A stretch of 64,000 bases of DNA. Source: Candidatus Kerfeldbacteria bacterium. GTDB lineage: Bacteria > Patescibacteriota > Patescibacteriia > UBA10025 > JAHIVO01. The notes under the pieces are model-generated. The model was not told where the DNA came from, did no database searches, and was given only the letters and a program-made list of their open reading frames with translations. Positions 19,479 through 63,197 of this stretch are shown one piece after another. How positions within the stretch are numbered: position 1 is the stretch's first letter; each line of letters begins with the position of its first letter. The position numbers and the translations under genes are program-made. The stretch spans positions 1,169,329-1,233,328 of the forward strand of contig CP181398.1 in NCBI GenBank assembly GCA_047946875.1, given 5' to 3'.

Positions 19479-19515
19479 TTTCGAATATTAGCAATAAAAA
19501 CTATTTAAGTCAATG

Positions 19516-31958: not shown

Positions 31959-31959
31959 T

Positions 31960-32598: not shown

Positions 32599-32632
32599 AA
32601 TAAGTTTTTAATTTATTAATAATGATTAATAT

Positions 32633-41062: not shown

Positions 41063-41430
41063 TAAAAGGTAAAGTTATTCATGGAGAGCATCTAGGTAGG
41101 AAGCAGGGTTACCCAACTGCAAATTTATCAGACAGCGTCCTGGAAGGTACTAATATAGCTAAAGGTGTTTATGTAGCAGAGGTTTTATTGAAAGGTAAAA
41201 AATACCAGTCCGTTTTGATTATTGGTGTACCTGGAGTTAATATACAGAAAGAAGGAAAGGTAGAAGTATATTTATTATATTATCGAGGAAATATATATGG
41301 TAAAGAAATATCTATTACACCAATAAAAAAAATAAGACCTTTAATTATTATTAAGGACAATAAGGAGCTTATTAGTAGAATTAAGCAAGATTTAGAGGTA
41401 GTAAAAAATTATTTTGTTTCAGCTAAATAA
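41053..41430 (+). CDS. stand-alone riboflavin kinase domain protein
   Basis: GKVIHGEHLGRKQGYPTANL. Confidence 0.75.
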   Translation: MEIIKGKVIHGEHLGRKQGYPTANLSDSVLEGTNIAKGVYVAEVLLKGKKYQSVLIIGVPGVNIQKEGKVEVYLLYYRGNIYGKEISITPIKKIRPLIIIKDNKELISRIKQDLEVVKNYFVSAK

Positions 41431-43754
41431 GGAGGAAGGAATTTAATGGGCCATTGTTTTTCGTTACCGAGGTATTTTAGATCCATTATACCTATCTTAC
41501 CAACGTATAGCTTTTTTATTTCATTTTCGCCCTTGTCTTTAATAAGCTGAAGGATCATTCGTTGACCGTTGAAATATGCTAGGTCTTTTGTTAGTGCTCC
41601 GTGTTGGTTAGTATTTTGTAATCCCCTTTTTACTCGTAAACATACCCACCAAGCCTTTTCTTCTGGTATGTTCATATTCTTGATTAGGTAATGAAATAAT
41701 TCAACAAATGACATGCTGTTGGCGTGATGAATGGCAATAACATTTAGAGCTGGTCTAAGATATTTATTGCCAAGTGGAAGGCCAAGTTTGTTTTGATTAT
41801 AGATTGCCAAACCTTCTTCAGTGGTAAGGTAATTAGCAGTTCCTTGTTCAAATAATTTATATTTTTGTAATCTTCCATTCTCTAGACGGTATATATGAGT
41901 TTCAATTTCATGTGCTAATAATGCTTGAAATCTAAAGGCGGTTATTTTAGATTTTTTACTGATGAAAATTGTATTTTTTTTATTTATTTGCATACCAGAT
42001 GTAGAAGTTTCCAGTACTTTTATTTTCCATCTTGAAAGCTTCTTATCTATCAAAAATTTCTCAGTTTTTTTAACAATGTCATCAATTTTTAGTCTTTTGC
42101 TTGTATCTGGTGAGAATTCTGATTCTTTAATAAATTTAATGGCTTGCTCATATTGATGCTCATTAACTTCACCAAAAACTTTATGGCTATATTCTATAAG
42201 TTCAGGTTCGCCAACATGTTTTACAAGTAGTAATTTATTTTTTATTTCTTCAATCTTTTTTAGATAAAGAGGCATTAACGGGTGGTTTATAAGGCGAGGT
42301 ATTTTCTTTAACTCATTTAAATAATAGTTAATATCTAGGTCGTGTTTTTTATAAATAAATTTTGGTGAATGAGCAGGATTTTTTAGAAAGGTTTTTTGTT
42401 CATCTTCAATATTTATGGGTTTAATACGTGATAAAATTCCAATTTGTTCATTGATAGAACATATTTTTTTATCGATATTTAAAATAATTTTCTCTTCTCT
42501 AGTTTCCGAAGATGCAGCCGCTCTGTACTCAGGAACAGTTTTTGAAACATCTACCAAAAAATCAGATAAATATTTTCCTGATATTATAATTTTATAACTA
42601 TGATCACTAAGGTCTTCCCTAATAAAGGGTATTTTAATTTTTTTATTTCTTACAAGCAGAGTTAATAATTTTTTTTCTTCAGGGATAGATATTTTACTAT
42701 TTATGATATTTTTGGAACTATGCGGATCTATTTTTGCTTTAATTGGTCCACTATTAGTAGTAATAATGTTTACATATTCATAAAGGCCAATAACTGGCTT
42801 ACTAGTAGAAACAACTTTGGTATTTTCTTTTTTTATAATTTTTGTAAATAATGTTTTTCCTAATTTTACACCTTCTATAGGAGATAATACTTTTAAGTCA
42901 GAAATTTTATTTAATCTATTTCTTAACATGACATGATTTGAAATTTGAATTGCCAAGCCAGCACGAGCATTAATTTCTAATATTTTGATACCACTTTTTG
43001 CTAAGGCAATATCAACTGCAAGATAGCCTACTTGTGTCATATATTGTGTACGAGAAGCAGCTAGCAGTATTTCGTCCCAATGTGGTATTACTATACTGTT
43101 TACCATTAAGCCATTTGGAAGTTTTTTTATTATTTTATTATATTGAACACCATATGTAGTTTTACCTGTGCCAATATCTATACCTATACCAACAGCTCCT
43201 AGGTGAAGATTTGCTTTACCATGTGATTCCATTGTTGGTAATCGAAGCATAGCAATAACAGGTACGTATTTAAAAACGATAATTCTTATGTCAGGCAAAC
43301 CAGCTTCAATGTATTTATTAAAATATTCATTTGATATTAGTAGTTCTTCAAATAATACTTTGTCACGTAATCCTGATATAGCAAATTTACCATCTAAGAT
43401 GGAGATACAGTGTTGTACTAAATCATCCCATTTATATTTTTTGTCATTAACATCAGTATATGTACTACCTTGTGTTTTTTGGATGGCAATAATTCCCTCT
43501 CCACCATAACCACGATTTGGTTTGATAACAAAACTTTTTGGTAATGCTTTAGGATTGAAGTTTCTTAGCTCTGGTAATGATTTTAAACTAGCATAAAGCT
43601 TAGCCACGCCTAAACCACGGGCTTGTAAAAAATGCTTAGTCCCTATTTTATCATCAGCTAATTTCTTTTTTGTTTTAGAATTATATCGAGATAGGTATTG
43701 TAAATTTCTAGAGTTGATCCCGAGTATTCCAGCAGATTTTGCGAAAAATGACAT
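41409..43754 (-). CDS. fusion of alpha-L-glutamate-ligase-like ATP-grasp domain and DUF1704 / QEGLA-motif HExxH domain (781 aa)
   Basis: N-terminus GILGINSRNLQYL...DDKIGTK...FVIKPNRGYGGEGI (RimK-related ATP-grasp). C-terminus LLAHEIETH and TTEEGLA (QEGLA-like). Confidence 0.8.
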   Translation of the reverse strand: MSFFAKSAGILGINSRNLQYLSRYNSKTKKKLADDKIGTKHFLQARGLGVAKLYASLKSLPELRNFNPKALPKSFVIKPNRGYGGEGIIAIQKTQGSTYTDVNDKKYKWDDLVQHCISILDGKFAISGLRDKVLFEELLISNEYFNKYIEAGLPDIRIIVFKYVPVIAMLRLPTMESHGKANLHLGAVGIGIDIGTGKTTYGVQYNKIIKKLPNGLMVNSIVIPHWDEILLAASRTQYMTQVGYLAVDIALAKSGIKILEINARAGLAIQISNHVMLRNRLNKISDLKVLSPIEGVKLGKTLFTKIIKKENTKVVSTSKPVIGLYEYVNIITTNSGPIKAKIDPHSSKNIINSKISIPEEKKLLTLLVRNKKIKIPFIREDLSDHSYKIIISGKYLSDFLVDVSKTVPEYRAAASSETREEKIILNIDKKICSINEQIGILSRIKPINIEDEQKTFLKNPAHSPKFIYKKHDLDINYYLNELKKIPRLINHPLMPLYLKKIEEIKNKLLLVKHVGEPELIEYSHKVFGEVNEHQYEQAIKFIKESEFSPDTSKRLKIDDIVKKTEKFLIDKKLSRWKIKVLETSTSGMQINKKNTIFISKKSKITAFRFQALLAHEIETHIYRLENGRLQKYKLFEQGTANYLTTEEGLAIYNQNKLGLPLGNKYLRPALNVIAIHHANSMSFVELFHYLIKNMNIPEEKAWWVCLRVKRGLQNTNQHGALTKDLAYFNGQRMILQLIKDKGENEIKKLYVGKIGIMDLKYLGNEKQWPIKFLPPYLAETK

Positions 43755-43760
43755 ATTAAA

Positions 43761-45287
43761 TTATTCTTCAATATTTTTATCTTGAAAAAGACTGCGGAAT
43801 CTAAAAAATTCTGTTAATCGTAGTCCAGTGAATTTACCTAAAATAACTAGTCCAATAATTGGTAGAATAATCAACTCAGGCCATGACATAATAAGACTAT
43901 TGAAGGTATTCCATACAATTAGGTAATAAGCTACTATAGAGACAATAACGGTGGATAGTGCGCTCCAGAGAGCTTCTTTTAGCCCTGCTTCGCTTTGTGC
44001 TGATAGAAACTTCTCAGATAGTGTAGACATAACCAGCATGGGGAAAATCGCAATAGATATTGCAAGAGAAATTTGGTAATAAGATAAAAACCAGACAAAC
44101 CCTAAAAATGATAGTCCAATCAGCGATAAGACGATGCCGGTTTTTGGGATATATAATAATTTGAATTTGTTTAATAATTTACGTAATAAATAACTAACAA
44201 CTACAATGATTAATAGTATACCAATCCCAAATACAATTCCTAATATATAAAGTGAAAGTGAGATTACGAGTGGAGTAAAAATACCAAATGTAGACATGCC
44301 TACGAATTGTCTGGCTAGAGTAATAACAAAGGCAATAAAAGGAAATACTAATAACATATAGATAGTATTGGATGGGATTCCTTTTGTAATAAAATTTGTA
44401 ATTGCGTGTGATAGAAAAAAGATGGGAGATTTCTCACTTCTAGAATCAATAATTCTATATTCTATTGCTCTGTTTGTTAAATTAGTTGATAGAAGGTTAT
44501 AATCTTTTGTTTCAAATATTGGATTTAGTGATTCAGGTCTGGTAAGTAGAATAAAATTAGGTTGTATTACTTGAAATGATTGCTGAGTAAGTTTTGAGGT
44601 TATTCCAATATTTTGATCTGTAATTTTTATAAATAATTTATTGTCTGAGGTAATTTTTTTATCTTCTTCTTGATTTTGCCAATATCGACTAAATGCTTGA
44701 AGCCCAATTGATGCGTTAGTATAAAAAATTAATGAATCAGCATTTTTTATGAATTCACTTTCCTCAGTGATTAGAGGTAATAATTTTTCTTCTGTTAAAA
44801 AGCCCGTATCTTCTTCAACAGCAGATATTACTTTTAATTGAACTCCATTATTAGCAGCTTGATCTTCAATTAGACTAAATTCTTCGAAAATATTTTTATC
44901 TGTAATTAATAATACTTGTTTGTCATAAACAAATATATCTTTTTTTATTAATTCTTTTTGTTCTCGTTGTTGGATAGTAAGAGTAACATTATGTAATCCA
45001 TAACTATCAAATTCGTGAATTACTTCTTGTCCAAACTGAGCTGTGTTGGTATCAGAAAAATCCCAACGGTAGATTGGTGTGCCGGCATCTTTAATAGTTA
45101 TAGAGTCTGATGCATCGAACAATGATTTTTTGCCAAATTCAATATAATCTTCGGAAATAATTATTGGTTGGATTGTATTTATATCAATGTTTTCTTCAAT
45201 CAAAAACTCCTGAGCATTTGATTGTCCAGGTATAAAAATAAATATTATCAGTAGAGGGATTATAGCAAGAATTAACTTTTTCTTCAT
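43761..45287 (-). CDS. secreted PKD-domain protein fused to a C-terminal 7-TM module (7TM_transglut-like)
   Basis: Signal peptide. PKD-like IYRWDFSD...HNVTLTI. C-terminal GMSTFGIFTPLVISL plus about seven TM helices. 6-nt gap to the ATP-grasp gene. Confidence 0.7.
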   Translation of the reverse strand: MKKKLILAIIPLLIIFIFIPGQSNAQEFLIEENIDINTIQPIIISEDYIEFGKKSLFDASDSITIKDAGTPIYRWDFSDTNTAQFGQEVIHEFDSYGLHNVTLTIQQREQKELIKKDIFVYDKQVLLITDKNIFEEFSLIEDQAANNGVQLKVISAVEEDTGFLTEEKLLPLITEESEFIKNADSLIFYTNASIGLQAFSRYWQNQEEDKKITSDNKLFIKITDQNIGITSKLTQQSFQVIQPNFILLTRPESLNPIFETKDYNLLSTNLTNRAIEYRIIDSRSEKSPIFFLSHAITNFITKGIPSNTIYMLLVFPFIAFVITLARQFVGMSTFGIFTPLVISLSLYILGIVFGIGILLIIVVVSYLLRKLLNKFKLLYIPKTGIVLSLIGLSFLGFVWFLSYYQISLAISIAIFPMLVMSTLSEKFLSAQSEAGLKEALWSALSTVIVSIVAYYLIVWNTFNSLIMSWPELIILPIIGLVILGKFTGLRLTEFFRFRSLFQDKNIEE

Positions 45288-48363: not shown

Positions 48364-48511
48364 ATAGTTAGTATTAATACATCTAAGTCGGGGTGGCGAG
48401 ACTCGAACTCGCGACCCCTCGCTCCCAAAGCGAGTGCGCTAGCCAACTGCGCTACACCCCGACACAGATGTATTACTAACTATTTTATTTTCAAGGTAAT
48501 GATTTTATTGG
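48364..48511 (-). mobile_element. 148-bp inverted-repeat-flanked unit carrying a complete tRNA-Pro, nested in the older tRNA-Pro
   Basis: IR-L atagttagtattaatacatct (48364-48384). IR-R agatgtattactaactat (48466-48483) is its reverse complement apart from a 3-nt indel. Confidence 0.5.
48388..48461 (-). tRNA. tRNA-Pro (TGG), no encoded CCA
   Basis: rc: CGGGGTG TA GCGC AGTTGGCTA GCGC A CTCGC TTTGGGA GCGAG GGGTC GCGAG TTCGAGT CTCGC CACCCCG A. Confidence 0.9.
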
Positions 48512-48549
48512 AAACTGCGCCTGCCTGCCGGTAGGCAGGCTACACCCCG
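48512..48549 (-). pseudogene. old tRNA-Pro 5' portion (nt 1-17) split by a 20-nt GC hairpin
   Basis: aaactgcgc[ctgcctgccggtaggcaggc]tacaccccg versus the intact ccaactgcgctacaccccg. Lies 25 nt after tRNA-Phe. Confidence 0.75.
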
Positions 48550-48574
48550 TAACTATATAGAAAGTTTGGTAAAA

Positions 48575-48646
48575 TGCCGCGGGGCGGAATCGAACCACCG
48601 ACGCAAGGATTTTCAGTCCTTCGCTCTACCCCTGAGCTACCGCGGC
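48575..48646 (-). tRNA. tRNA-Phe (GAA), no encoded CCA
   Basis: rc: GCCGCGG TA GCTC AGGGGTA GAGC G AAGGA CTGAAAA TCCTT GCGTC GGTGG TTCGATT CCGCC CCGCGGC A. Confidence 0.9.
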
Positions 48647-48758
48647 GCGTCGAAATGATACTTCAGGTTCCGTTTCCAACTGAAGTTGAAAACTGCACTC
48701 TTTATATCATTTCTCCTCTCCTCAATGAAGCTACGCTTCCTTTCGGTATAATTCTTAA
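48647..48758 (-). ncRNA. tRNA-proximal structured spacer element, copy L6 (fills the tRNA-Ile to tRNA-Phe gap)
   Basis: rc: ..GGAAGCGTAGCTTC..GAGGAGAGGA GAAATGATA TAAAGA GTGCAGTTTTCAACTTCAGTTGGAAACGGAACC TGAAG TATCATTTC GACGC. Confidence 0.6.
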
Positions 48759-48835
48759 TGGTGGGCGATCCAGGAGTTGAACCTGGGACCTCGTCATTAT
48801 CAGTGACGCGCTCTAACCAACTGAGCTAATCGCCC
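48759..48835 (-). tRNA. tRNA-Ile (GAT), CCA encoded
   Basis: rc: GGGCGAT TA GCTC AGTTGGTTA GAGC G CGTCA CTGATAA TGACG AGGTC CCAGG TTCAACT CCTGG ATCGCCC A CCA. Confidence 0.9.
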
Positions 48836-49203: not shown

Positions 49204-50696
<1,493 letters not shown>

Positions 50697-50757
50697 AAAA
50701 TGTGTAAGTACTGTTTTCATAAATGAACCACAGTACTAAAAATTGTAAAAAATTTTG

Positions 50758-55156: not shown

Positions 55157-57826
55157 CTAATTATTAGCTATTACTTGTTCTGCTTCTTGCATATTGATAG
55201 AAAGAAGCTTAGAAACGCCATCATCACCCATCGTAACTCCATAAAGAGTATGGGCTTCTTCCATCGTAGCTCGGTTATGAGTAATAACTATGAATTGTGA
55301 TTTTGTTGATAATTTTTTAACGATTGAAGCAAATCTGATTGAATTTGATTCATCCAAAGCAGCATCAACTTCATCTAAGACAACAAATGGTGAAGGATTG
55401 TTATGGATAATTGCACAAATTAGAGCAATGGACGTTAAAGCTCTTTCACCTCCTGACAACATGCTGATTCCTTGCATTTTTTTGCCCGGTGGAGTGGCTT
55501 TCATATCTATACCTGTAATTACTTTTTCTCCTCTTGATTGTTGTGGTACTTCTTTTTTGATTTCTTCTTCAGAATTTTCGGAATCATCATCTTCGTCTTC
55601 ATTATCATCTTCAGAAGATTCTTCCATTACTATTTGTTTATATTCTTTAATCAAATTGAGACTAGCGGCCCCACCATTAAATAATATCTTGAAGTATTCT
55701 GAAAATTGTTTGTTAATGTTTTCAAAAGCTATGCTAAATTGTTTTTTAATGGTTTCATCTAGACTATCTATTACTTGTTCCAAATCTTCTATCGCTTTAT
55801 TCAAATCTTCTGTTTGGTCTGATAGAAAATCAAATCGTTCTTTGGTTTCTTTGTATTCTTGGCTTACTTGAGGATCAATCCCACCAATTAGTTCTAATGT
55901 TTTTTTTAATTTTTGTATTTCAGAAAAAAGTTCCGTATTAACCGGAGGAGGGGTTTTTACTTTATAAATAACATTTCTTTCTTCATCATTTAGCTCATCA
56001 ATCATTTCTTTTTCTAGGTCTTCCAATCTTGTTTCCAGCTTAGCTAGTTCAATTTTAATATTATTAATGTCAGCAATAATCTTATTTAGCTCTTCTTGTT
56101 TTGATGAATATGTGTTTTGCAGTGAAAAAACCTTTTCTTTTTTATCTTGTTCAGCTTGATTAAAATTACCGAGCTGATTATTGATTTTTTGTAAACTAGC
56201 TTCAGTATTTTTTATCTTTTCATTTAGTTCTTGATCTTCTTTGGCTAGGTCAGTAGCAATTTCCTGAGGTGTTTTGTTTGATTTAGCCAAATCTAATTCT
56301 TTTGTAATTTTGTTTAATTCATCTTCTTGTTCAGAAATTGTATTTGTACTTAACAATTTCTTTTCCTTAGAAATTTGTAGAGCTACTTGTTTTTCATTAA
56401 TAATTGATACATAATCATTTTTTGAATTAAGTAGTTTGGTGATTTGATCTTGTAGGGAAATAATTTCATGAGGATCGCCAATGCCTGAGTCACTCAATTT
56501 ATGATTAAGTTGTGCTAACTTGCTGGTAATAATTTTCGCTTCTGCAATTATGGTTTGTAAATCATCAATATTTTGAGCAGCTTCAATTTTTTCTAAAATT
56601 ATTTTTTGTTCAAAGTAAATGCTTGCAATATTTTCAGCAACTTCGGGTATGGCAATAGTTTTATTGTTGGCTAATTTATTTTTTGCAACTGCCAACTTAT
56701 CTTCAATATCTTTGTATTGATTATCTAATTTATCTTGCTCACCTTCTGACTCGCTTAGTTCTTTATTTAATTTATTTATTTTATGATCTAAATTTTGATT
56801 GTCTTGTTTTGATTTATCAATTTCAGATTTTATTTGTTCTTGTTTTTTTTCTAGCCAAACTAGATCAAAATCACCTGCTTTTTTTCTGTCAATTTCTGTT
56901 CTACCTTTTACCACAGTCTGTTCGCGCAATAATTTATTTTTTTCTTCAATAATTTGATCATATTTCTTTTGTAGATTTTCAAAATCTTCTTGACGAGAAG
57001 TCCCCATAGCTAACTGTTGCATTTTTTTTTGAATTTCATTTAGTTCATTGTCTGTTTGTTTTCTTGTTTCTTCAATTTTTGAAAATTTTTCTTCTTCAAG
57101 TTTATGATTTTTTTTATGGTCATGCCATAGTCCCGCATAATATTTATGTTGAATTTCTTTGAGTTGCTTAGTAACTTCCTCTCTTTTTTCCAAACGGTTG
57201 ACTTGCCTAGTCAAAGATCGTAACCGTGGTTCAATCTCTTGCATTAACATATCTCCTTGTTTGAGATTTTCTTTGGTTTGTCGTAGTTTATTAATTGCTT
57301 GGTCTTTTTTTATTTGGAATTGTCGGACACCAGCCGCTTCATCAAAGTATTCTTTTCTTTGGGCAGGTGTGGCCGAGAGAAATAGATCTACTGTCCCTTG
57401 GCTAATAATACTGTAACTACGCTGTCCAAAGTTAGATTTAGCCAAAAGCATAAGGATGTCTTGTAATCGAACTTTATTTTTGTTAATAAAATATTCGCCA
57501 TTACCATCACGATAAATTCGTCGAGAAATTATAATTTCTGGGTAGTCAATTGGAGCTTGATGGTCTTGGTTGTCCAAATGCAAATCAACTTGGCAATAGC
57601 CAAGTCTAGTTTTTTTGTCTGAGCCAGCAAAAATGACATCACCTGATTTTTTACCACGTAATGTTTTTAGACTTTGTTCGCCAAGCACCCATCTGATTGC
57701 GTCAGCCGCATTTGATTTACCTGATCCATTAGGACCGACAATAGCAGTGATACCTGGGGTAAATTCAAGTGATGTTTTATTGGCAAATGATTTGAAACCT
57801 TGAATTACAAGTTTTTGGAGATGCAT
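55157..57826 (-). CDS. smc: SMC chromosome-condensation ATPase (short form, 889 aa)
   Basis: N-terminal GPNGSGKSN, long coiled coil, C-terminal LSGGE and VLDEVDAALD. TTACAC-17-TAGAAT promoter upstream. Confidence 0.9.
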   Translation of the reverse strand: MHLQKLVIQGFKSFANKTSLEFTPGITAIVGPNGSGKSNAADAIRWVLGEQSLKTLRGKKSGDVIFAGSDKKTRLGYCQVDLHLDNQDHQAPIDYPEIIISRRIYRDGNGEYFINKNKVRLQDILMLLAKSNFGQRSYSIISQGTVDLFLSATPAQRKEYFDEAAGVRQFQIKKDQAINKLRQTKENLKQGDMLMQEIEPRLRSLTRQVNRLEKREEVTKQLKEIQHKYYAGLWHDHKKNHKLEEEKFSKIEETRKQTDNELNEIQKKMQQLAMGTSRQEDFENLQKKYDQIIEEKNKLLREQTVVKGRTEIDRKKAGDFDLVWLEKKQEQIKSEIDKSKQDNQNLDHKINKLNKELSESEGEQDKLDNQYKDIEDKLAVAKNKLANNKTIAIPEVAENIASIYFEQKIILEKIEAAQNIDDLQTIIAEAKIITSKLAQLNHKLSDSGIGDPHEIISLQDQITKLLNSKNDYVSIINEKQVALQISKEKKLLSTNTISEQEDELNKITKELDLAKSNKTPQEIATDLAKEDQELNEKIKNTEASLQKINNQLGNFNQAEQDKKEKVFSLQNTYSSKQEELNKIIADINNIKIELAKLETRLEDLEKEMIDELNDEERNVIYKVKTPPPVNTELFSEIQKLKKTLELIGGIDPQVSQEYKETKERFDFLSDQTEDLNKAIEDLEQVIDSLDETIKKQFSIAFENINKQFSEYFKILFNGGAASLNLIKEYKQIVMEESSEDDNEDEDDDSENSEEEIKKEVPQQSRGEKVITGIDMKATPPGKKMQGISMLSGGERALTSIALICAIIHNNPSPFVVLDEVDAALDESNSIRFASIVKKLSTKSQFIVITHNRATMEEAHTLYGVTMGDDGVSKLLSINMQEAEQVIANN

Positions 57827-58003: not shown

Positions 58004-58034
58004 AAAAAAACCGCCGAAATATTGCTTTCGACGG
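58004..58034 (-). terminator. Rho-independent terminator after pyrB-pyrI
   Basis: CCGTCGAAA / TTTCGGCGG stem followed by U7 on the minus strand. Confidence 0.7.
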
Positions 58035-58058
58035 TAATAGTTGAGAAGTTTATTCGAA

Positions 58059-59540
58059 TTATGTAGCTGAGTGTGGAACTAAGCTTTCATGATTGAATAC
58101 CCTTTCACAGTAGTGACAACGACATGGACTAGTAGGATTATCCCGGTCATTGACAATAAAAATAGTATTGGCTTCTGGGTCATTATTGGTGATACAGTCT
58201 TCATTAGGACATCCGAAGACATTTTTGATATGAGATGGAGTTTTAAAGCTCTTCTTAATCTTCATATCATTACCCGGTAAAATATTGATTGATATTTCAG
58301 GATAAATGAATTGAGCAGTAGCCGCGACAATGTCGTCCATTGTTACTTCAGGTAATAGTAAGACATCTTTTTGGCCTTCATATTTACGTGAATTAACATA
58401 TTGAACTAATTGACGAGGATGTTCTCCTGTTATGCATGAGGTTGATTCAAGTAAATGAATTAGTTTGACCACTTCACCAGGAGGAATATGATCTATAACT
58501 GTACCCCGTTTAATGGGTTGAAAATACCTAACTGGTTTTTGAGAATCACCGACAGGTATTTCTTTTTCATTTTTTAGTAAGTCTACATCGATCACTAAGT
58601 CACCTAAGCCAAAGAATGGTTCCATTAATGATCGTACGCTTAGACTCATTCTGGCAGGGACGCCATTTTCTGCTTGCTCCCAAGCAACTAGACGAGGATC
58701 TGATTTTATATCAGGAGCAATTTCCTCGACCGAAGGAAGTGGGTGCATGACAATAACATCTTTTTTCCAGGAATCCAAGACCGCTTTGTTGATAATGAAT
58801 TGACCCTGGCAAGCTTTACGCAAGATTGGATCGATAATGCGTTCGAGTTGTGAGCGCTGGACATAAACAACATCACAAGATGCTAAGTCGTCCATTGAAT
58901 CACTTTCTGAAATAATATGGAGACCCACTTTCGCGTGATTTGGCATTTCCGCGCCTTTTGGTGATACCAAAACCGTTTCAATTCCTGAAAAATTACTTAG
59001 AGCTCTACTGAGAGAGGTACCAGTGCGCCCATTACCCAAATCTCCTAAGTAACCAATGCGGAAATTATTTAAACGACCCAATTTTCGTTTAATAGTAAGT
59101 AGATCAAGAAGAGTTTGTGTTGGGTGTTGATTACGTCCATCACCTCCGTTGATAACACACATATTTCTGCCATACTTTTCAACAATTTCGGCTATCCAAC
59201 GAGGACCGCCTTCAAGTGTAGTTCTGAGGACACAGATGTCAGCACCTTGTCCGGCAATCATTCTGGCGGTGTCGGCCAAACTCTCTTTTTTCATTAATGA
59301 CGTGCCTTCTGCACCTGAGAATTCATCAATTCGTAAACCCAAATTGAGAAAAGCTTGTTTAAACGATTTGTGAGTTCTGGTGCTTGGTTCAAAGAAAGCG
59401 AGAACGCCTTTTTTTTCAGGAAATTTTGCAGTATAGGTTCTATCCCTAGCGAATTGAACCATTTCATTAGCCTGTCTTACTAGAGCTAATATTTCGTCTG
59501 CATTTTTGAAATCATTAGTACTCAAAATATGCGAATTCAT
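58059..59540 (-). CDS. pyrB: aspartate carbamoyltransferase catalytic chain fused to regulatory chain (PyrB-PyrI fusion)
   Basis: STRT, HPTQ and HPLP catalytic motifs. The C-terminal ~160 aa match PyrI (KRGTVIDHIPPG...CPNEDCITN...CRCHYCE zinc domain). Confidence 0.9.
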   Translation of the reverse strand: MNSHILSTNDFKNADEILALVRQANEMVQFARDRTYTAKFPEKKGVLAFFEPSTRTHKSFKQAFLNLGLRIDEFSGAEGTSLMKKESLADTARMIAGQGADICVLRTTLEGGPRWIAEIVEKYGRNMCVINGGDGRNQHPTQTLLDLLTIKRKLGRLNNFRIGYLGDLGNGRTGTSLSRALSNFSGIETVLVSPKGAEMPNHAKVGLHIISESDSMDDLASCDVVYVQRSQLERIIDPILRKACQGQFIINKAVLDSWKKDVIVMHPLPSVEEIAPDIKSDPRLVAWEQAENGVPARMSLSVRSLMEPFFGLGDLVIDVDLLKNEKEIPVGDSQKPVRYFQPIKRGTVIDHIPPGEVVKLIHLLESTSCITGEHPRQLVQYVNSRKYEGQKDVLLLPEVTMDDIVAATAQFIYPEISINILPGNDMKIKKSFKTPSHIKNVFGCPNEDCITNNDPEANTIFIVNDRDNPTSPCRCHYCERVFNHESLVPHSAT

Positions 59541-59789
59541 AAAATACTCCTCCCTCCATATGGGGGTGGTTAAGTTGTTAATATTCTTTCTTTATTTTTG
59601 TATTATTTTTTGAATTCAAGCTTTATATCAGCTCAAATTATTAAAACATTACCATAAGCAATAACTATGGTCAAGGTTTTAGGTGTATTGAGGTTTATTT
59701 CATGATTTTTTTGCTAATATTAGCAATAATACTAAATAATAAAAAACCCGTTGTATTAAATACAAACGGGTATAATTTTTTGGTAAGTA

Positions 59790-60002
59790 TTAATCAAAAA
59801 ATACTTCAGTTCCTCCACCAAAGGAGTGCAATTTTCCACTAACAGTTGTGTGGATATAATTTTGTTGTTTGTGCTTTGTGATGAGTTGAGGACTGTCTAC
59901 CGCACTATTGTTTAAGAAGCCACTGTCTCTGACCACAACTCGTAACGTTTTGTTGGTATTAGTTGAAAGTTTGTCAGGTGTAAGCTAATTTACTTTTTCC
60001 AT
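59790..60002 (-). pseudogene. 71-codon reading frame interrupted by an in-frame TAG at codon 6
   Basis: Own translation: MEKVN*LTPDKLSTNTNKTLRVVVRDSGFLNNSAVDSPQLITKHKQQNYIHTTVSGKLHSFGGGTEVFFD. AAGGA upstream of the ATG. Flanked by a promoter-like TTGAC and hairpin terminators. Confidence 0.35.
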
Positions 60003-60134
60003 TTTACTATCCTTGTTTTTTTAAGGTTCAATTTGATTTTATATAAATTAGCATTAACTAAGTATATAGTCAAATATTTAGGTATAAAAAAACGAGGTTT
60101 AGAATATAAACCTCGTTATAGAACTGTAATGTAT

Positions 60135-60803
60135 TTAGTGCTGATTATCCGCGATGAATTTTTTTACATCTTCTAATTCATCTGCTGATATCATACCCTC
60201 GTTAAAGAACATATCCGCTACTTTCAAAATTGGAAAAAGCGATTCAGTTTGATAACCATCATTACTTAAAGATTTAAGGCCTCCTTGTTGCCTGTCAAAA
60301 GCAACTAGGGTAATGATTGATTCGGGTGGGAAACCACTGACTTCCAAACGACGAATAGCATCTCGTTTACTATCCGATGTAGTAATTACATCGTCTAGGA
60401 GATAGACCAGATCGCCAGGCTGATAACCTCCGATCACGAAGGTTTTACTGTCACCAGATCCATAAGCTTTTGGTTGATGACGTAACGCGATAAGTTGCCA
60501 GTCCCAACCGGATTCATGTGCCAACATAACTGTGGCAGTTCCTAATGGGTTTGCCGCTTCTGGAATTCCACAGATGAGCACGCGCCCGCTGTGGTCTTTT
60601 GGAATTAAGGATAGTATTTTATCCATAAATAATTTTCCAAAGCCATTCAGTAGTCCGGGAATAGCCCACATCTTGTCACGTAGATCTACGTAGATTGGTG
60701 ACATGCTACCATCTTTTAACTTAGTTAAGGTGCCAACCTTAATAAGGTTATCTTCTCGGAGTATTTTTAAAAACTCCAAATGTTGGGTAATGTCAAATGA
60801 CAT
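60135..60803 (-). CDS. pyrE: orotate phosphoribosyltransferase-like type I PRTase
   Basis: PRPP-binding motif VYLLDDVITTSDSK. Sits between pyrB and pyrF. Confidence 0.8.
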   Translation of the reverse strand: MSFDITQHLEFLKILREDNLIKVGTLTKLKDGSMSPIYVDLRDKMWAIPGLLNGFGKLFMDKILSLIPKDHSGRVLICGIPEAANPLGTATVMLAHESGWDWQLIALRHQPKAYGSGDSKTFVIGGYQPGDLVYLLDDVITTSDSKRDAIRRLEVSGFPPESIITLVAFDRQQGGLKSLSNDGYQTESLFPILKVADMFFNEGMISADELEDVKKFIADNQH

Positions 60804-60821
60804 AATTAAAGAACTCTCTTT

Positions 60822-61745
60822 CTATACCGATGGAGTGCGGTATTTGTTAATTTCGTTTTTGGTTTTTTCAGCTTCTGCGGCAGCGGCGGTGGCATAATCT
60901 TCACCGTTAGATGCGTAGAGGACTGAACGTGAGACGTTGATCATAGCGAGACCATCACCATTGTTTTCGACAGTTGCCTTTAGATTACCTTCTTGTTTAC
61001 CGATACCTGGTATTAGCAAGACAACTTCATTACCGACCAACTGTCTTACTTCGCCGAGTTCTTTGGGGTGAGTAGCACCAGTTACCAAACCTAGTTGGCC
61101 TTCCCATATTTCAGTACGTTTGAATTCGTAACCGAAGAAATTAATCCCTTTGGTCAGAACTTCGGCAACCCATAGGTAATAGGGAATTTTACGGTCGGCA
61201 CAATCACCCACTGAATCAGGAAGTAGAACTGATACGTTTTGAAAAATCGTCGCATCTTTATTTGAAGTGACACAAAGCGCAATTATACCTAGCCCAGCCT
61301 TCAGAAATGGTTCTAGGGTATGTGGACCGAGATACGGATTGACCGTAACCACATCGGCGCCTAACTCTTTTAGAGATAGGGCATAGTGATCGGCAGTGTT
61401 ACCGATATCACCACGTTTCCCATCAAGTACTAGGACGTGATCAGGATAGTTTTCTTTGATGTAAGCACAAAGTTTTGTGAGTACATCTGCCCCGGCCATA
61501 CCGAAGCTTTCGAAGAATCCCATATTAGGTTTGAAAGCACAACAGTGTTGAGCAGTGGCATCTACGATGTCGACACAGAATCTGTAGACTACCGAGAAGT
61601 CACGCCATTCTTCATTCTTGGCATATTTTTCAGGATACATATCCCAAAGGCAAGTCGGGATTTGTTTTCTGTTAGGATCTATTCCTACACAGACAAGGCT
61701 ATTATATTTTTCAATAGCCAGTTTCAGTTTTTCCGAAAAAGTCAT
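60822..61745 (-). CDS. pyrF: orotidine 5'-phosphate decarboxylase (long, type 2)
   Basis: VGIDP..., DGKRGDIGNT, overall type-2 OMPDC pattern. Confidence 0.85.
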   Translation of the reverse strand: MTFSEKLKLAIEKYNSLVCVGIDPNRKQIPTCLWDMYPEKYAKNEEWRDFSVVYRFCVDIVDATAQHCCAFKPNMGFFESFGMAGADVLTKLCAYIKENYPDHVLVLDGKRGDIGNTADHYALSLKELGADVVTVNPYLGPHTLEPFLKAGLGIIALCVTSNKDATIFQNVSVLLPDSVGDCADRKIPYYLWVAEVLTKGINFFGYEFKRTEIWEGQLGLVTGATHPKELGEVRQLVGNEVVLLIPGIGKQEGNLKATVENNGDGLAMINVSRSVLYASNGEDYATAAAAEAEKTKNEINKYRTPSV

Positions 61746-61882
61746 TAGAACCTCCGTATAAATTGTTAATGTTGCAGTTTTTTTATTTATTTAATTTAAA
61801 ATAACTTAACATTTTTTAAATTAATAGTCAATAAAGAATCCTACTAAATTAATTTAGTAGGATTAAATTTTCTCTCCCAATA

Positions 61883-62356
61883 TTACTCAGGAAGAACAAT
61901 CTTATTATCTTGTAAGATCTGTTCAATTTTTTGAAAATCATTTTCGGACAAGGTATTATCTTTCGTATGAATTTCTCTTCTATCCAAGAGAATGCGGGGA
62001 GTTTCTTCTCCTTCAAAGAGGACAACGTGCAGAATTTCCCTGCGAAGGGATTCCGCATCGATATGAATAATAAAGGCACTTGCCTTTATCTGATAATGAT
62101 GCCAATGTCCTTGTTTTCGGAAATCACTACCTTCTTCCATATCAGGAATATAAGGAAGATTTTTTGAAGGAATATCAACACCAAACATCAAAAAGATTTG
62201 TTCGGCTTTCTTTTCCCCGTCTGGCAATGGAATCATGCGTGCATTATCATTATTGCTGACACCGCGGAAACCAAGGCTTTCTGTTGGTGCACAGTAGTTA
62301 ATACCGGCTACTATGTTCATTGCAATATCTGCTGACATTATTAACTCCTTTTTCAA
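61883..62356 (-). CDS. hypothetical protein (157 aa), monocistronic
   Basis: ORF track. Own TTGACA promoter (~62430-62455, minus strand) and a 28-bp palindromic terminator (61838-61865). Confidence 0.55.
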   Translation of the reverse strand: MKKELIMSADIAMNIVAGINYCAPTESLGFRGVSNNDNARMIPLPDGEKKAEQIFLMFGVDIPSKNLPYIPDMEEGSDFRKQGHWHHYQIKASAFIIHIDAESLRREILHVVLFEGEETPRILLDRREIHTKDNTLSENDFQKIEQILQDNKIVLPE

Positions 62357-62507
62357 AAGAACATATTACTCAATATTCTTCTTACGTAAAAATGGTTTAT
62401 AAGGTTTAATCTCAAGTTTATTATCTTATCATAGGATTTTGGTTTGTCAATAAAAAGTCCTACTAATTAACTTAGTATCTCTTTCATATATTGTTAATTA
62501 TTTTATT

Positions 62508-63197
62508 TTACCAGTCTTTTGCTTTTAGTCCTGCCTCTGCTGCATCCATTTGTGCTTCTTGTTTTGAAGTGCCTTCTCCTTTTGCAATCAAATTGTTATT
62601 TAAGTAGACACCAATAACAAAAAGTTTGTTATGATCCGGACCATCTTCTGATATTACTTTATAGGCAGGAGTTGCTCCTTGTTTTTCTTGACTTAGTTCT
62701 TGGAAGCGACTTTTTGGATCAAGATATAATTGGTTATCTAGAATATTTTTTAATTTACTTATAATATGTTTATGGATAAATTTCTCTACTACATCATATC
62801 CTTGATCTAAATAAATAGCACCGATTAATGCTTCTGTCGCGTTAGCTAAAATATATTGTCTTGCCTTACTGTTTGTATCTTTAGACTCTCCTTTTGATAG
62901 AAATAAAAATTCATCTAGTCCTGTCTCATCAGCGATAGTGGCTAACATTTTTGAGTTAACTAGACTAGCGCGCCAGTTAGTGAGGTCGCCTTCTGGATTC
63001 TCAAATTTTTTGTAAAGATGATCAGTAACAATTAATTCTAAAACGGCGTCACCAAGAAATTCTAGGCGTTCATTATGATCCAATTTAAAATCAGAGTGTT
63101 CGTTTAAATATGAACGATGCACCATGGCTTGTTTAAGAAGATCTAGATTATCAAATTTTATATCTAGTTTGTCTCCCAGTTTTTTTATGTTATCCAT
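62508..63197 (-). CDS. rnc: ribonuclease III
   Basis: NERLEFLGDAVL signature plus a C-terminal dsRBD. Confidence 0.95.
   Translation of the reverse strand: MDNIKKLGDKLDIKFDNLDLLKQAMVHRSYLNEHSDFKLDHNERLEFLGDAVLELIVTDHLYKKFENPEGDLTNWRASLVNSKMLATIADETGLDEFLFLSKGESKDTNSKARQYILANATEALIGAIYLDQGYDVVEKFIHKHIISKLKNILDNQLYLDPKSRFQELSQEKQGATPAYKVISEDGPDHNKLFVIGVYLNNNLIAKGEGTSKQEAQMDAAEAGLKAKDW

What the first reader, a model, noticed from the sequence alone, without database searches (positions are those of the whole stretch)
58059..62356. Higher-GC island of monocistronic pyrimidine genes (PyrB-PyrI fusion, pyrE, pyrF) without pyrC/pyrD/carAB nearby
Each gene from 58.0 to 62.4 kb has its own TTGAC(A)-type promoter and its own strong hairpin terminator. 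Each is visibly GC-richer than the flanking smc and rnc genes. This suggests horizontal acquisition. The set covers the committed step (ATCase with a covalently fused regulatory chain) and the last two steps (OPRT, OMP decarboxylase). Dihydroorotase and dihydroorotate dehydrogenase are not here. If they are absent genome-wide, the organism could only salvage orotate, and the role of the ATCase fusion would be unexplained. The island also holds an unknown 157-aa protein and a TAG-interrupted small ORF.
Basis: partly seen in the sequence, partly recalled or inferred. Interest (0 to 1): 0.5.

Follow-up and report, generated by a model that had tools for sequence, protein, structure and literature searches.

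The report
Ancestral pyrimidine gene cluster, not island
A tiny-genome CPR bacterium (Candidatus Kerfeldbacteria) carries intact genes for a fused aspartate carbamoyltransferase, OPRT and OMP decarboxylase between rnc and smc. The same cluster sits at the same place in seven related genome loci, so it is an old inherited locus, not a recently imported island. Its GC-richness is real, and I could not check whether the missing middle steps of the pathway exist elsewhere in the genome.

Summary
There is a PyrB::PyrI fusion (58059-59540), a divergent OPRT (60135-60803), a type-2 OMP decarboxylase (60822-61745), an orphan 151-aa protein, and a small ORF with an in-frame TAG. All lie on the minus strand.

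The higher GC is significant. GC3 is 0.29-0.37 against 0.228±0.044 for other genes (P about 3e-4). No pyrC, pyrD, carAB or arcC lies in the 64-kb window.

Two points are wrong or unsupported:
- pyrF and pyrE are 18 nt apart with no terminator, so they form an operon. They are not monocistronic.
- Recent acquisition of the island as a unit is not supported. The order nusB-rnc-[variable slot]-pyrF-pyrE-(small ORF)-ATCase-smc-rpsP recurs in seven related loci whose SMC is only 48-68% identical to the window's.

Within this old locus individual genes have been swapped: two OPRT types, two OMP decarboxylase types, and fused versus unfused ATCase.

Fused catalytic-regulatory ATCase is already known from Thermotoga maritima and is widespread in Patescibacteria.

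Whether dihydroorotase and dihydroorotate dehydrogenase exist elsewhere in this 1.31-Mb genome could not be tested. This is an ordinary locus with an interesting mosaic history. Interest is low to moderate.

The parts
62508..63197 (-). rnc (RNase III). This is the conserved upstream flank of the locus.
   Evidence: Pfam Ribonucleas_3_3, Ribonuclease_3 and dsrm. It is 62-76% identical to rnc at the same position in relatives.
62423..62473 (-). Copy 1 of a direct repeat (remnant of the rnc terminator, a T-run and a TTGAC box), together with the promoter-like site of the 151-aa gene.
   Evidence: Repeat D3, 62446-62473, is 82% identical to 61827-61854. TTGACA-16-TAAGAT with an upstream TG, 10 of 12 matches.
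61883..62338 (-). Orphan 151-aa protein ('u157'). It is probably an inserted cassette in the variable slot.
   Evidence: AAGGAG lies 6 nt before ATG 62338. There are no Pfam or NCBIfam hits. Only 22 relatives were found among 1.84 billion representatives, with conserved motifs GFRG and LPYLPDMGxGSxFxKxGxWHHY. The gene is absent from relatives' loci. The AF2 model has pLDDT 93 but no PDB fold match. The gene is flanked by direct repeat D3.
61826..61864 (-). Terminator hairpin of u157, which is copy 2 of the direct repeat, overlapping the TTGACT box upstream of pyrF.
   Evidence: 12-bp perfect palindrome at 61837-61864. TTGACT at 61831-61826 (read).
60822..61745 (-). pyrF, a type-2 OMP decarboxylase and the first gene of the pyrF-pyrE operon.
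   Evidence: TIGR02127 187.5 against a cutoff of 110.6; Pfam OMPdecase 5.6e-27. The active-site motif LDGKRGDIGNT is present. It is 52-54% identical to L090, L092 and L093, and 42% to L001 and L006.
60135..60803 (-). pyrE, a divergent UMPS-like OPRT, co-transcribed with pyrF (18-nt gap).
   Evidence: NCBIfam OPRT models hit below their cutoffs. The best PDB hits are the OPRT domains of UMP synthases 3qw4 and 2wns, with aligned SPIYVDLR, R..PKAYG, VYLLDDVITT and DRQQGG motifs. Its family contains about 22 Patescibacteria-type proteins. The same type sits at the same position in L092 and L093.
60091..60117 (-). Intrinsic-terminator-like hairpin after pyrE.
   Evidence: 11-bp stem followed by TTTTTATACC.
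59790..60002 (-). Small conserved ORF (about 70 aa) interrupted by TAG at codon 6 (59985-59987). It is probably a pseudogene in this genome.
   Evidence: It is homologous to the 74-aa gene of L090 (31% over 68 aa, E 8e-6), the 68-aa gene of L091 and the 71-aa gene of L092, all at the same position. They share the C-terminal motif HSFGxGTE(I/V). The TAG aligns with CAG (Gln) of L090. TAG is an ordinary stop in 11 of 51 window ORFs. The gene is not annotated as a protein, because the accessions XOU94364 and XOU94365 are consecutive.
59745..59771 (-). Terminator-like hairpin after the small ORF (ACCCGTT...AACGGGT followed by T6).
   Evidence: Read from the sequence. Partly listed as inverted repeat I8.
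59541..59674 (-). pyrBI promoter (TTGACC at 59674-59669, 17 nt, TGgTAATGT) and an A-rich leader. The leader ends in a conserved hairpin (59549-59569) that overlaps the Shine-Dalgarno sequence.
   Evidence: The TTGAC(C/G) box and the last 45 nt or so of the leader are conserved in seven Kerfeldbacteria-like loci (77% mean column identity). This includes L092, whose ATCase is unfused. A hairpin is predicted in every locus, with compensatory arm changes.
58059..59540 (-). pyrB::pyrI, a single-chain class-B aspartate carbamoyltransferase. The catalytic domain is about residues 1-300, the linker about 301-340, the allosteric domain about 341-430 and the Zn domain about 437-485.
   Evidence: Four Pfam domains. 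TIGR00670 above its cutoff. Catalytic residues S53 T54 R55 T56, K84, R106, H139, Q142, R172, R229, Q231 and HPLP 266-269, and the Zn ligands C444, C449, C475 and C478, are invariant or nearly invariant in 34 fused homologs. Best PDB hits are the P. abyssi, M. jannaschii and E. coli catalytic chains, and the S. acidocaldarius and E. coli regulatory chains.
58010..58035 (-). Intrinsic-terminator-like hairpin after pyrBI.
   Evidence: 10-bp stem followed by TTTTTTTATTT.
55157..57826 (-). smc. This is the conserved downstream flank of the locus.
   Evidence: Pfam SMC_N 1.1e-57. It is 48-68% identical to smc at the same position in relatives.

Best explanation
The region is a vertically inherited, clade-conserved UMP-biosynthesis locus of a Candidatus Kerfeldbacteria (Patescibacteria/CPR) genome. 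It is not a recently acquired island. It consists of four transcription units between rnc and smc.

The units are:
- A lineage-specific orphan cassette (the 151-aa protein).
- A pyrF-pyrE operon.
- A small conserved ORF that carries a nonsense TAG in this genome.
- pyrB::pyrI, with its own conserved promoter and leader hairpin.

Shown:
- The three enzymes have intact family signatures and catalytic or ligand residues.
- The gene order and chromosomal position are shared by seven related loci.
- The GC3 excess is real.

Inferred:
- The fused ATCase makes N-carbamoyl-aspartate under nucleotide control through its covalently attached PyrI domains, as in the fused Thermotoga maritima enzyme.
- OPRT and OMP decarboxylase convert orotate to UMP.
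- The missing steps are carbamoyl-phosphate supply, dihydroorotase and dihydroorotate dehydrogenase. They are most likely encoded elsewhere in the 1.31-Mb chromosome (about 55%) or supplied by the host (about 45%).
- The locus has a variable slot and a history of gene-for-gene replacement within Patescibacteria.
- The GC3 excess is a property shared with several relatives' loci. It is not a signature of recent import of the whole block.
For: Source organism: the PyrBI and PyrE proteins match, at 100% identity, proteins of a Candidatus Kerfeldbacteria MAG with a 1,309,938-bp contig, accessions XOU94364.1 and XOU94365.1.

Synteny: the order gyrA-L32-nusB-rnc-[variable]-pyrF-pyrE-(small ORF)-ATCase-[variable]-smc-rpsP-beta-helix-KH-trmD is seen in L001, L006, L090, L091, L092 and L093.

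Divergence of the flanks from the window: smc 68, 59-61, 56-57 and 48% identity; rnc 62-76%.

Island genes track the flanks:
- PyrBI is 62% and 59% identical to L001 and L006, against smc 56-57% and rnc 62%.
- PyrF is 52-54% identical to L090, L092 and L093, and 42% to L001 and L006.
- PyrE is 54-56% identical to L092 and L093.

Intact enzymes.

The fusion is old and widespread. The 57 best hits to PyrBI are all about 490-aa fused proteins, and every one that carries a source name is labelled Patescibacteria, Kerfeld-, Falkow- or Buchananbacteria.

GC3 of the pyr genes also exceeds the flanks in L001 (0.64-0.69 against 0.49-0.59), in L006 (0.73-0.77 against 0.55-0.66), and for pyrE and pyrF of L090.

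There are no mobile-element marks at the island borders.

Relatives carry purL (L006) and purD (L091) in the same locus. This suggests the clade keeps real nucleotide biosynthesis.

A fused, allosteric ATCase is an established enzyme form. Chen et al. 1998 is cited in PMC4581275.
Against: - The GC3 excess (P about 3e-4) has no demonstrated cause under pure vertical descent. It is absent in L091, L092 and L093.
- The PyrBI similarities are incongruent with the flanks. The window is 45% identical to L090, its closest relative by flanks, but 62% to L001. So at least one replacement occurred in the clade, and identity values alone cannot say on which branch.
- The window's OPRT is unrelated at BLAST level to the OPRT of L001, L006, L090 and L091.
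- No DHOase, DHODH, CarAB or carbamate kinase was found in the window or within ±10 kb of any of ten related ATCase loci, nine with a fused PyrBI and L092 with an unfused ATCase.
- None of the 120 best relatives of a Patescibacteria DHOase lies on the 1,309,938-, 1,116,013- or 1,147,868-bp contigs.
- Relationships rest on pairwise identities of a few genes, not on proper phylogenies.
Confidence: 0.6

Rival explanations
1. Recently acquired genomic island. On this view the whole 58.0-62.4 kb block was imported from a GC-richer donor and has not yet ameliorated.
For: All four genes are in the upper tail of GC3 and four-fold GC3. They form the most GC3-rich run of four genes in the window. Each unit has its own terminator.
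Against: - The same block is in the same rnc-smc interval in seven related loci that have diverged to 48-68% SMC identity.
- No tRNA, integrase or bounding repeats are present.
- Intergenic DNA inside the block is as AT-rich as elsewhere (GC 0.20-0.29).
- The closest PyrBI in 5.8 billion proteins is only 62% identical and comes from a syntenic relative.
- Relatives' pyr genes are also GC3-rich.
Confidence: 0.07
2. Old locus with newer alleles. On this view the rnc-smc interval is a recombination hot spot. Individual pyr genes and cassettes are repeatedly replaced by copies from other, GC-richer Patescibacteria through recombination in the conserved flanks and leader. This would explain both the GC3 excess and the mosaic gene types.
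For: - Two unrelated OPRT types alternate at the same position.
- L091 has a short type-1 pyrF.
- L092 has an unfused ATCase of 28-33% identity behind the same conserved leader.
- The pyrE and pyrBI of L090 are both closest to those of L091 (49% and 51%), although its flanks are closest to the window. Its pyrE has GC3 of 0.71 in a 42% GC locus.
- L092 and L093 share 88% SMC identity but only 62-68% for PyrF and PyrE.
- u157 is bracketed by a duplicated terminator/promoter module.
- All sampled relatives are GC-richer (42-54%) than the window (34%).
Against: - For the window itself, the PyrF, PyrE and PyrBI identities fit vertical expectations. No donor-like close homolog was found for PyrBI; the best is 62%.
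- The replacements that can be placed fall on other branches (L090, L091, L092).
- GC-biased gene conversion and low-expression effects were not tested.
Confidence: 0.3
3. Truncated pathway. On this view the genome really lacks dihydroorotase, DHODH and CarAB. OPRT and OMP decarboxylase salvage host-derived orotate. The fused ATCase has another role. It either exchanges carbamoyl-aspartate with the host, or works in reverse with a carbamate kinase as a catabolic transcarbamylase that yields ATP.
For: - No pyrC, pyrD, pyrK, carAB or arcC lies in the window or within ±10 kb in ten related ATCase loci, nine fused and one (L092) unfused (267 kb searched including the window).
- The two Patescibacteria loci with unfused pyrB and pyrI carry carAB and pyrC next to them, and L094 also carries pyrD and pyrK.
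- In a Falkowbacteria contig the fused pyrBI directly follows a bona fide carbamate kinase (TIGR00746 373.6 against 358.25). That region is otherwise syntenic with the complete operon but lacks pyrC through pyrF.
- No DHOase hit was found on the three large Kerfeldbacteria contigs.
- Adjacency to carbamate kinase is the classical mark of catabolic transcarbamylases, and further substrates are expected (PMC6022934).
- CPR bacteria commonly have patchy pathways (PMC9166423).
Against: - The absence is untested for 95% of the genome.
- The DHOase probe listed only the top 120 hits (at least 270 bits). It would miss a divergent or different-class enzyme.
- Retention of the nucleotide-binding PyrI domain and the Zn site points to biosynthetic feedback control.
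- purL and purD in relatives' loci indicate real de novo nucleotide synthesis.
- No carbamate kinase is in the window.
- Some genomes labelled Kerfeldbacteria or Falkowbacteria do encode DHOase.
Confidence: 0.3

Closest known systems
Thermotoga maritima fused PyrB-PyrI aspartate transcarbamylase (Chen et al. 1998, J Bacteriol 180:6389, as cited in PMC4581275)
   Same: It is a single polypeptide with the catalytic domain first and the regulatory domain second. It belongs to class B (the dodecameric c6r6 type) and is reported to be allosteric.
   Different: The window protein scores only 151 bits against NCBIfam's bifunctional PyrB/PyrI equivalog NF009916, whose cutoff is 800. It therefore belongs to a separate, Patescibacteria-wide fused lineage. 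No biochemical data exist for this lineage. Its genomic context differs: it lies next to pyrF-pyrE, without carAB, pyrC or pyrD.
Class-B ATCase with separate PyrB and PyrI chains (E. coli 1D09, Pyrococcus abyssi 1ML4, Sulfolobus acidocaldarius 1PG5)
   Same: These are the best solved relatives of both halves: catalytic chains at E 7e-52 to 2e-45, and regulatory chains at E 1.5e-16 to 9e-14. All carbamoyl-phosphate and aspartate ligands and the four Zn cysteines are conserved.
   Different: Here the two chains are joined covalently by a linker of about 40 residues. The His of the RTVHS motif, nearly invariant elsewhere, is Thr in the window.
Bifunctional PyrF-PyrE proteins (NCBIfam NF004034/PRK05500) and the trypanosomatid UMP synthase 3qw4
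   Same: The window's adjacent pyrF then pyrE match the N- and C-terminal halves of NF004034 (E 5e-31 and 2.9e-11). The OPRT is most similar to the C-terminal OPRT domain of 3qw4. The order of activities is the same.
   Different: Here they are two separate genes 18 nt apart. Scores are far below the equivalog cutoff (107.8 and 42.6 against 656).
Complete de novo pyrimidine operon in other Patescibacteria (L094, GCA_043813585.1, labelled Kerfeldbacteria; and L052)
   Same: Same phylum and same pathway. The gatB-(carbamoyl-phosphate synthesis)-ATCase arrangement also frames the fused gene in Falkowbacteria.
   Different: Those operons have unfused pyrB and pyrI together with carA, carB and pyrC; L094 in addition has pyrD, pyrK, a canonical pyrE and a short pyrF. 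Their PyrB is only 37-39% identical to the window's catalytic domain. That is less than the archaeal unfused ATCases (43-44%) or other fused Patescibacteria (44-46%).
Catabolic transcarbamylase and carbamate kinase pairs (arginine deiminase, agmatine and allantoin pathways; PMC6022934)
   Same: These pair a transcarbamylase gene with an adjacent arcC, as seen for fused pyrBI in the Falkowbacteria locus L008.
   Different: No carbamate kinase is in the window. No catabolic ATCase is known. The PyrI domain argues for biosynthetic regulation. This is only a lead.

Membership tests
Aspartate carbamoyltransferase catalytic chain (PyrB, TIGR00670) | Family model score above the curated cutoff | tested here: met
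   TIGR00670 scored 252.6 bits against a cutoff of 236.95, over residues 4-300. Pfam OTCace_N and OTCace are both above their cutoffs.
Aspartate carbamoyltransferase catalytic chain (PyrB, TIGR00670) | Carbamoyl-phosphate and aspartate binding residues (E. coli S52 T53 R54 T55, K84, R105, H134, Q137, R167, R229, Q231, HPLP) | tested here: met
   The window has S53 T54 R55 T56, K84, R106, H139, Q142, R172, R229, Q231 and H266-P269. These are invariant or nearly invariant in 34 fused homologs.
ATCase regulatory chain (PyrI) | Allosteric domain plus a Zn domain with four cysteine ligands | tested here: met
   PF01948 scored 42.4 against a cutoff of 25, and PF02748 scored 44.6 against 23.4. C444, C449, C475 and C478 are invariant. 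The whole-chain equivalog TIGR00240 scored below its cutoff (75.3 against 148.55).
Bifunctional PyrB/PyrI equivalog (NCBIfam NF009916 / PRK13376) | Score above the curated cutoff of 800 bits | tested here: not met
   It scored 151 bits over residues 15-485. The architecture is the same, but this is a different lineage.
Allosteric class-B ATCase holoenzyme | Dodecameric assembly with CTP/UTP inhibition and ATP activation | not testable with these tools
   This needs purified protein. It is inferred only from domain content and the T. maritima precedent.
Orotate phosphoribosyltransferase (PyrE) | Family model score above the curated cutoff | tested here: not met
   NF010382 scored 64.8 against 208. 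TIGR00336 scored 58.6 against 106.8. Pfam Pribosyltran was not detected.
Orotate phosphoribosyltransferase (PyrE) | Type-I PRTase PRPP loop and OPRT motifs aligned to solved OPRTs | tested here: met
   phmmer gave E 5.6e-16 to the UMPS OPRT domain of 3qw4 and 7.1e-14 to human 2wns. The aligned motifs are SPIYVDLR, R-x-x-P-K-A-Y-G (flexible loop), VYLLDDVITTSDS and DRQQGG. All other significant hits are OPRTs.
OMP decarboxylase, subfamily 2 (TIGR02127) | Family model score above the cutoff and the DxKxxD active-site motif | tested here: met
   TIGR02127 scored 187.5 against 110.6. LDGKRGDIGNT is present at residues 107-117.
Horizontally acquired genomic island | Atypical base composition or codon usage | tested here: met
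   GC3 z-scores are 1.4-3.2. P = 3e-4 for four random genes.
Horizontally acquired genomic island | Absent from the same site in related genomes | tested here: not met
   It is present between rnc and smc in all seven related loci examined.
Horizontally acquired genomic island | Mobility marks: flanking tRNA, integrase or transposase, or bounding direct repeats | tested here: not met
   The nearest tRNAs are at 48-49 kb and the nearest integrase is at 19.5 kb. The only convincing direct repeat brackets the 151-aa gene alone.
Complete de novo UMP pathway | Carbamoyl-phosphate source, DHOase and DHODH encoded in the genome | not testable with these tools
   These are absent from the 64-kb window. 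The remaining 1.25 Mb or so could not be read. The indirect probe was inconclusive.

The most novel reading that the evidence does not exclude
In the Patescibacteria lineages that carry the fused PyrB::PyrI, the canonical middle of the pathway (DHOase and DHODH) and CarAB may be truly missing. In that case the fused ATCase would not start pyrimidine synthesis. It would instead handle host-derived or host-destined N-carbamoyl-aspartate. One possibility is phosphorolysis to aspartate and carbamoyl phosphate, coupled to carbamate kinase for ATP. That would be a new catabolic transcarbamylase pathway. Meanwhile OPRT and OMP decarboxylase would salvage orotate. The orphaned context of the fused gene in nine of nine loci, and its adjacency to arcC in Falkowbacteria, do not exclude this.
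Probability: 0.1. Interest if true: 0.7.

Novelty: new member of a known kind. Interest (0 to 1): 0.3.

Why it matters
CPR/Patescibacteria are usually described as unable to make their own nucleotides.

This locus shows that one Kerfeldbacteria clade has kept, for a long evolutionary time, a regulated ATCase together with the last two UMP-synthesis enzymes at a fixed chromosomal site. Individual genes at that site have been swapped for non-orthologous versions.

If the rest of the pathway is present, these episymbionts are more self-sufficient in pyrimidines than assumed. If it is absent, the conserved fused ATCase needs a new explanation, and the locus becomes a concrete test case for metabolite hand-offs between symbiont and host.

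The case also cautions against a common inference. A significant GC/codon anomaly did not mean recent island acquisition here.

Tried and rejected
(1) Exact look-up of the window's PyrBI in the contig index found nothing, so the source genome's other genes could not be listed.

It returned mostly non-CPR pyrB-pyrI loci and gave only one useful Patescibacteria locus, L052.

(3) The first metagenome scan, with PyrBI, found no relative. The second, with PyrE, added only L095 and one distant locus.

(4) I tried to detect DHOase in the source genome by looking for its contig length (1,309,938) among relatives of a Patescibacteria DHOase. It was not among the top 120. I treat this as inconclusive and not as evidence of absence.

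(5) I tried to infer co-location of fused PyrBI and DHOase from equal or near-equal contig lengths (6220; 66372 and 66376). The accession series do not match, so I rejected this.

(6) Literature searches for Patescibacteria or Kerfeldbacteria with ATCase or pyrimidine synthesis gave nothing specific.

(7) Rfam found no known RNA family in the island, even at E <= 1. In particular there was no PyrR-binding element.

(8) I considered TAG recoding for the small ORF and rejected it. TAG ends 11 of 51 ORFs, including pyrF, and the aligned codon in L090 is CAG.

(11) I considered highly-expressed-gene codon bias as the cause of high GC3 and judged it unlikely. rpsP, L19, NusA, trigger factor and PNPase all have GC3 of 0.19-0.24.

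Full report
WHAT IS THERE

The 58.0-62.4 kb region carries five minus-strand reading frames between rnc (62508-63197) and smc (55157-57826).

- ORF 58059-59540 (493 aa) has the two catalytic ATCase domains followed by both PyrI domains. It passes the PyrB equivalog TIGR00670.
- ORF 60822-61745 is a subfamily-2 OMP decarboxylase, scoring above the TIGR02127 cutoff.
- ORF 60135-60803 is a divergent OPRT. It falls below all curated cutoffs. It aligns over its full length with the OPRT domains of Leishmania and human UMP synthase, with the PRPP loop and flexible-loop motifs in place.
- The '157-aa' protein most likely starts at ATG 62338, behind an AAGGAG, giving 151 aa.
- The small ORF at 59790-60002 has an in-frame TAG at codon 6.

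The window comes from a Candidatus Kerfeldbacteria (Patescibacteria/CPR) MAG with a 1,309,938-bp contig. The PyrBI and PyrE proteins are XOU94364.1 and XOU94365.1.

CHECKING THE OBSERVATION

The composition claim holds. GC3 of the four genes is 0.289-0.370, against 0.228±0.044 for 47 other ORFs. Four-fold-site GC3 is 0.29-0.376 against 0.198±0.063. The block is the most GC3-rich run of four genes in the window, and P = 3e-4 for four random genes.

The transcription claim holds only in part. Terminator-like hairpins follow pyrBI, pyrE and the 151-aa gene. A fourth follows the small ORF (read). But pyrF and pyrE are separated by 18 nt with no hairpin, so they form an operon. There are four units, not five monocistronic genes.

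Each unit is preceded by TTGAC(A/T/C), 16-17 nt, then TGnTAAnnT. The generic promoter scan, however, finds no more sites than in shuffled sequence (39 against 38.6).

No pyrC, pyrD, carA, carB or arcC is in the window. This rests on Pfam scans of 46 ORFs and on tblastn with Patescibacteria queries.

THE ISLAND IS AN OLD, SYNTENIC LOCUS

Contigs that encode the closest PyrBI or PyrE homologs all show the same neighbourhood: gyrA-L32-nusB-rnc-[variable genes]-pyrF-pyrE-(small ORF)-ATCase-[variable]-smc-rpsP-beta-helix protein-KH-trmD.

| Locus | Source |
|---|---|
| L001 | GCA_016214565.1 |
| L006 | GCA_049325535.1 |
| L090 | ERZ27252208, ENA metagenome assembly |
| L091 | SRR25822372, Logan assembly |
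| L092 | GCA_043808365.1 |
| L093 | ERZ27249449, ENA metagenome assembly |

L095 is a further contig of this kind.

These genomes are distant relatives. SMC identity to the window is 68% (L090), 59-61% (L093, L092), 56-57% (L001, L006) and 48% (L091). Their loci have 42-54% GC against 34% here. The cluster therefore predates the divergence of this whole group.

No tRNA, integrase or bounding repeat marks the block. The intergenic DNA inside it is as AT-rich as elsewhere.

GENE-BY-GENE HISTORY

Judged by flanking genes, the grouping is (window, L090), (L092, L093), (L001, L006), with L091 outside.

- PyrF follows this grouping: 52-54% identity to L090, L092 and L093, and 42% to L001 and L006.
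- PyrBI of the window is 62% and 59% identical to L001 and L006. That is about what rnc (62%) and smc (56%) predict. It is only 45% identical to L090.
- PyrBI and PyrE of L090 are both closest to those of L091 (51% and 49%). The simplest reading is a replacement on the L090 branch.

Two unrelated OPRT types occupy the same slot. The UMPS-like type is in the window, L092 and L093. A pyrE_Therm-like type is in L001, L006, L090 and L091. There is no BLAST similarity between the two.

L091 has a short type-1 pyrF. L092 has an unfused ATCase of 28-33% identity.

The slot between rnc and pyrF, and the slot after the ATCase, hold different genes in each genome. Examples are purD, purL, STAS proteins, an M20 peptidase and small unknown ORFs.

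So the locus is ancestral, but it is a site of repeated xenologous replacement. For the window's own branch, the data are compatible with vertical descent of pyrF, pyrE and pyrBI.

THE GC EXCESS

The GC excess is not an amino-acid effect, because it holds at four-fold sites. It is not a highly-expressed-gene effect either. rpsP, L19, NusA, trigger factor and PNPase all have GC3 of 0.19-0.24.

The pyr genes are also GC3-richer than their flanks in L001 and L006, and partly in L090. They are not in L091, L092 or L093.

Recent import of the block is excluded by synteny. Import of individual alleles from GC-richer relatives, GC-biased gene conversion at a recombination hot spot, and slower AT drift of rarely transcribed genes all remain possible. 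I could not discriminate among them, and the cause stays unexplained.

THE FUSED ATCASE

The 57 best hits in 5.8 billion proteins are all fused proteins of about 490 aa. Every one that carries a source name is labelled Patescibacteria (Kerfeld-, Falkow- or Buchananbacteria); most carry no name.

In 34 of these homologs the carbamoyl-phosphate and aspartate ligands and the four Zn cysteines are invariant or nearly invariant.

The catalytic half is closer to other fused Patescibacteria (44-46%) and to archaeal unfused ATCases (43-44%) than to the unfused PyrB of Patescibacteria that have complete operons (37-39%).

Solved relatives are class-B enzymes from P. abyssi, M. jannaschii, E. coli and S. 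acidocaldarius.

A fused catalytic-regulatory ATCase that is still allosteric is known from Thermotoga maritima (Chen et al. 1998, cited in PMC4581275). NCBIfam has a bifunctional model, NF009916. The window protein scores far below it (151 against 800 bits), so it is a separate fused lineage of a known architecture.

IS THE PATHWAY COMPLETE?

This could not be tested directly, because only 5% of the genome is available.

Context evidence gives a split picture. In all nine fused-PyrBI loci examined (±10 kb), and in the unfused L092 locus, there is no DHOase, DHODH, CarAB or PyrK. The two Patescibacteria loci with unfused pyrB and pyrI carry carA, carB and pyrC, and one of them has the whole set:
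- L052: gatB-argG-argH-carA-carB-pyrB-pyrI-pyrC.
- L094, labelled Kerfeldbacteria: gatB-carA-carB-pyrB-pyrI-pyrC-OTC-pyrD-pyrK-pyrE-x-pyrF.

In a Falkowbacteria contig the fused gene follows a bona fide carbamate kinase. That region is otherwise syntenic with the complete operon.

A search with a Patescibacteria DHOase returned none of the three large Kerfeldbacteria contigs among its top 120 hits. It would not have shown a divergent enzyme.

Against a truncated pathway:
- The regulatory domain is conserved.
- purL and purD lie in relatives' loci.
- DHOase occurs in some genomes labelled Kerfeldbacteria or Falkowbacteria.

I put the odds that the missing steps are encoded elsewhere at roughly even, slightly in favour.

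SIDE FEATURES

The 151-aa gene is bracketed by a duplicated terminator/-35 module (62446-62473 and 61827-61854, 82% identity). It is absent from relatives' loci. It belongs to a family of only 22 representatives. It gives a confident model (pLDDT 93) with no PDB fold match. It looks like a cassette dropped into the variable slot.

The small ORF belongs to a family of proteins of about 70 aa at the same position in L090, L091 and L092. The window's TAG aligns with CAG in L090, and TAG is a normal stop here. It is therefore most likely a nonsense mutation or a sequencing error.

The last 45 nt or so of the pyrBI leader, including a hairpin abutting the Shine-Dalgarno sequence, are conserved in seven loci. 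Compensatory changes are seen in the stem. The element is conserved even where the ATCase gene itself was replaced. It may be a cis-regulatory element, but I did not establish this.

VERDICT

The interpretation of horizontal acquisition of the island is not supported. The genome-wide pathway question remains open.

The region is a new member of known kinds: a fused class-B ATCase and a pyrF-pyrE pair, in a clade-conserved locus with a mosaic history. Interest is low to moderate.

Noticed in passing
window 59549-59569 (hairpin), within the leader 59541-59645; also the 45 nt or so upstream of the ATCase start in L001, L006, L090, L091, L092 and L093: The pyrBI 5' leader is more conserved than the coding sequence, with 77% mean column identity across loci of 34-54% GC. 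It ends in a small hairpin that abuts or overlaps the AGGAGG Shine-Dalgarno sequence. The stem arms show compensatory changes: ACCCU/AGGGU, ACCCC/GGGGU, GCCCC/GGGGC and GUCCC/GGGAC. The element persists in L092, where the ATCase gene itself is a different, unfused type. It is absent upstream of fused pyrBI in L007-L009. There is no Rfam match.
   Followed up: partly
[not shown]
   Followed up: partly
window 59790-60002 (-), TAG at 59985-59987: A small protein family of about 70 aa, with C-terminal motif HSFGxGTE(I/V), lies just upstream of the ATCase gene in L090, L091, L092 and the window. In the window, codon 6 is TAG where L090 has CAG. The function of the family is unknown.
   Followed up: partly
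L008 8950-11467 (Falkowbacteria, GCA_001780285.1), compared with L094: A carbamate kinase (TIGR00746, above its cutoff) lies directly upstream of a fused pyrBI. The surrounding region (thyA-tmk-gatB ... miaB) is syntenic with the complete pyrimidine operon of L094, but lacks carAB and pyrC through pyrF. In L007 and L009 the fused pyrBI stands alone between recO and aspS/asnS, after the ribosomal-protein operon.
   Followed up: partly
L006 11652-15449; L091 4133-5455: De novo purine genes sit inside the same rnc-smc locus in relatives. L006 has purL (the large FGAM synthase, 1265 aa) and L091 has purD. The interval therefore collects nucleotide-biosynthesis genes in this clade.
   Followed up: no
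window 49208-50698 (-) and 48387-48835: A complete 16S rRNA gene is followed by tRNA-Ile, tRNA-Phe and tRNA-Pro. There is no 23S or 5S rRNA anywhere in the 64-kb window, so the rRNA operon is unlinked. This region accounts for the GC peak at 48-51 kb.
   Followed up: no
window 19220-20397, and about 19.5-21 kb: A tyrosine recombinase/integrase (19516-20397) lies next to tRNA-Arg (19220-19293) and tRNA-Lys (18843-18919). A low-GC stretch (0.27-0.29) follows. This may be a remnant of an integrated element.
   Followed up: no
window 41409-45287 (-): A 781-aa protein that fuses a sugar-transfer-type ATP-grasp domain with a MATCAP-like carboxypeptidase domain lies next to a 508-aa PKD + 7TM 'inactive transglutaminase-associated' membrane protein.
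   Followed up: no
window 31311-34084 and 36358-36987: Three paralogous PlsC-type acyltransferases and an AMP-binding (acyl-activating) enzyme are clustered downstream of an H+-pyrophosphatase (29306-31300). This is notable for a lineage thought unable to make fatty acids.
   Followed up: no
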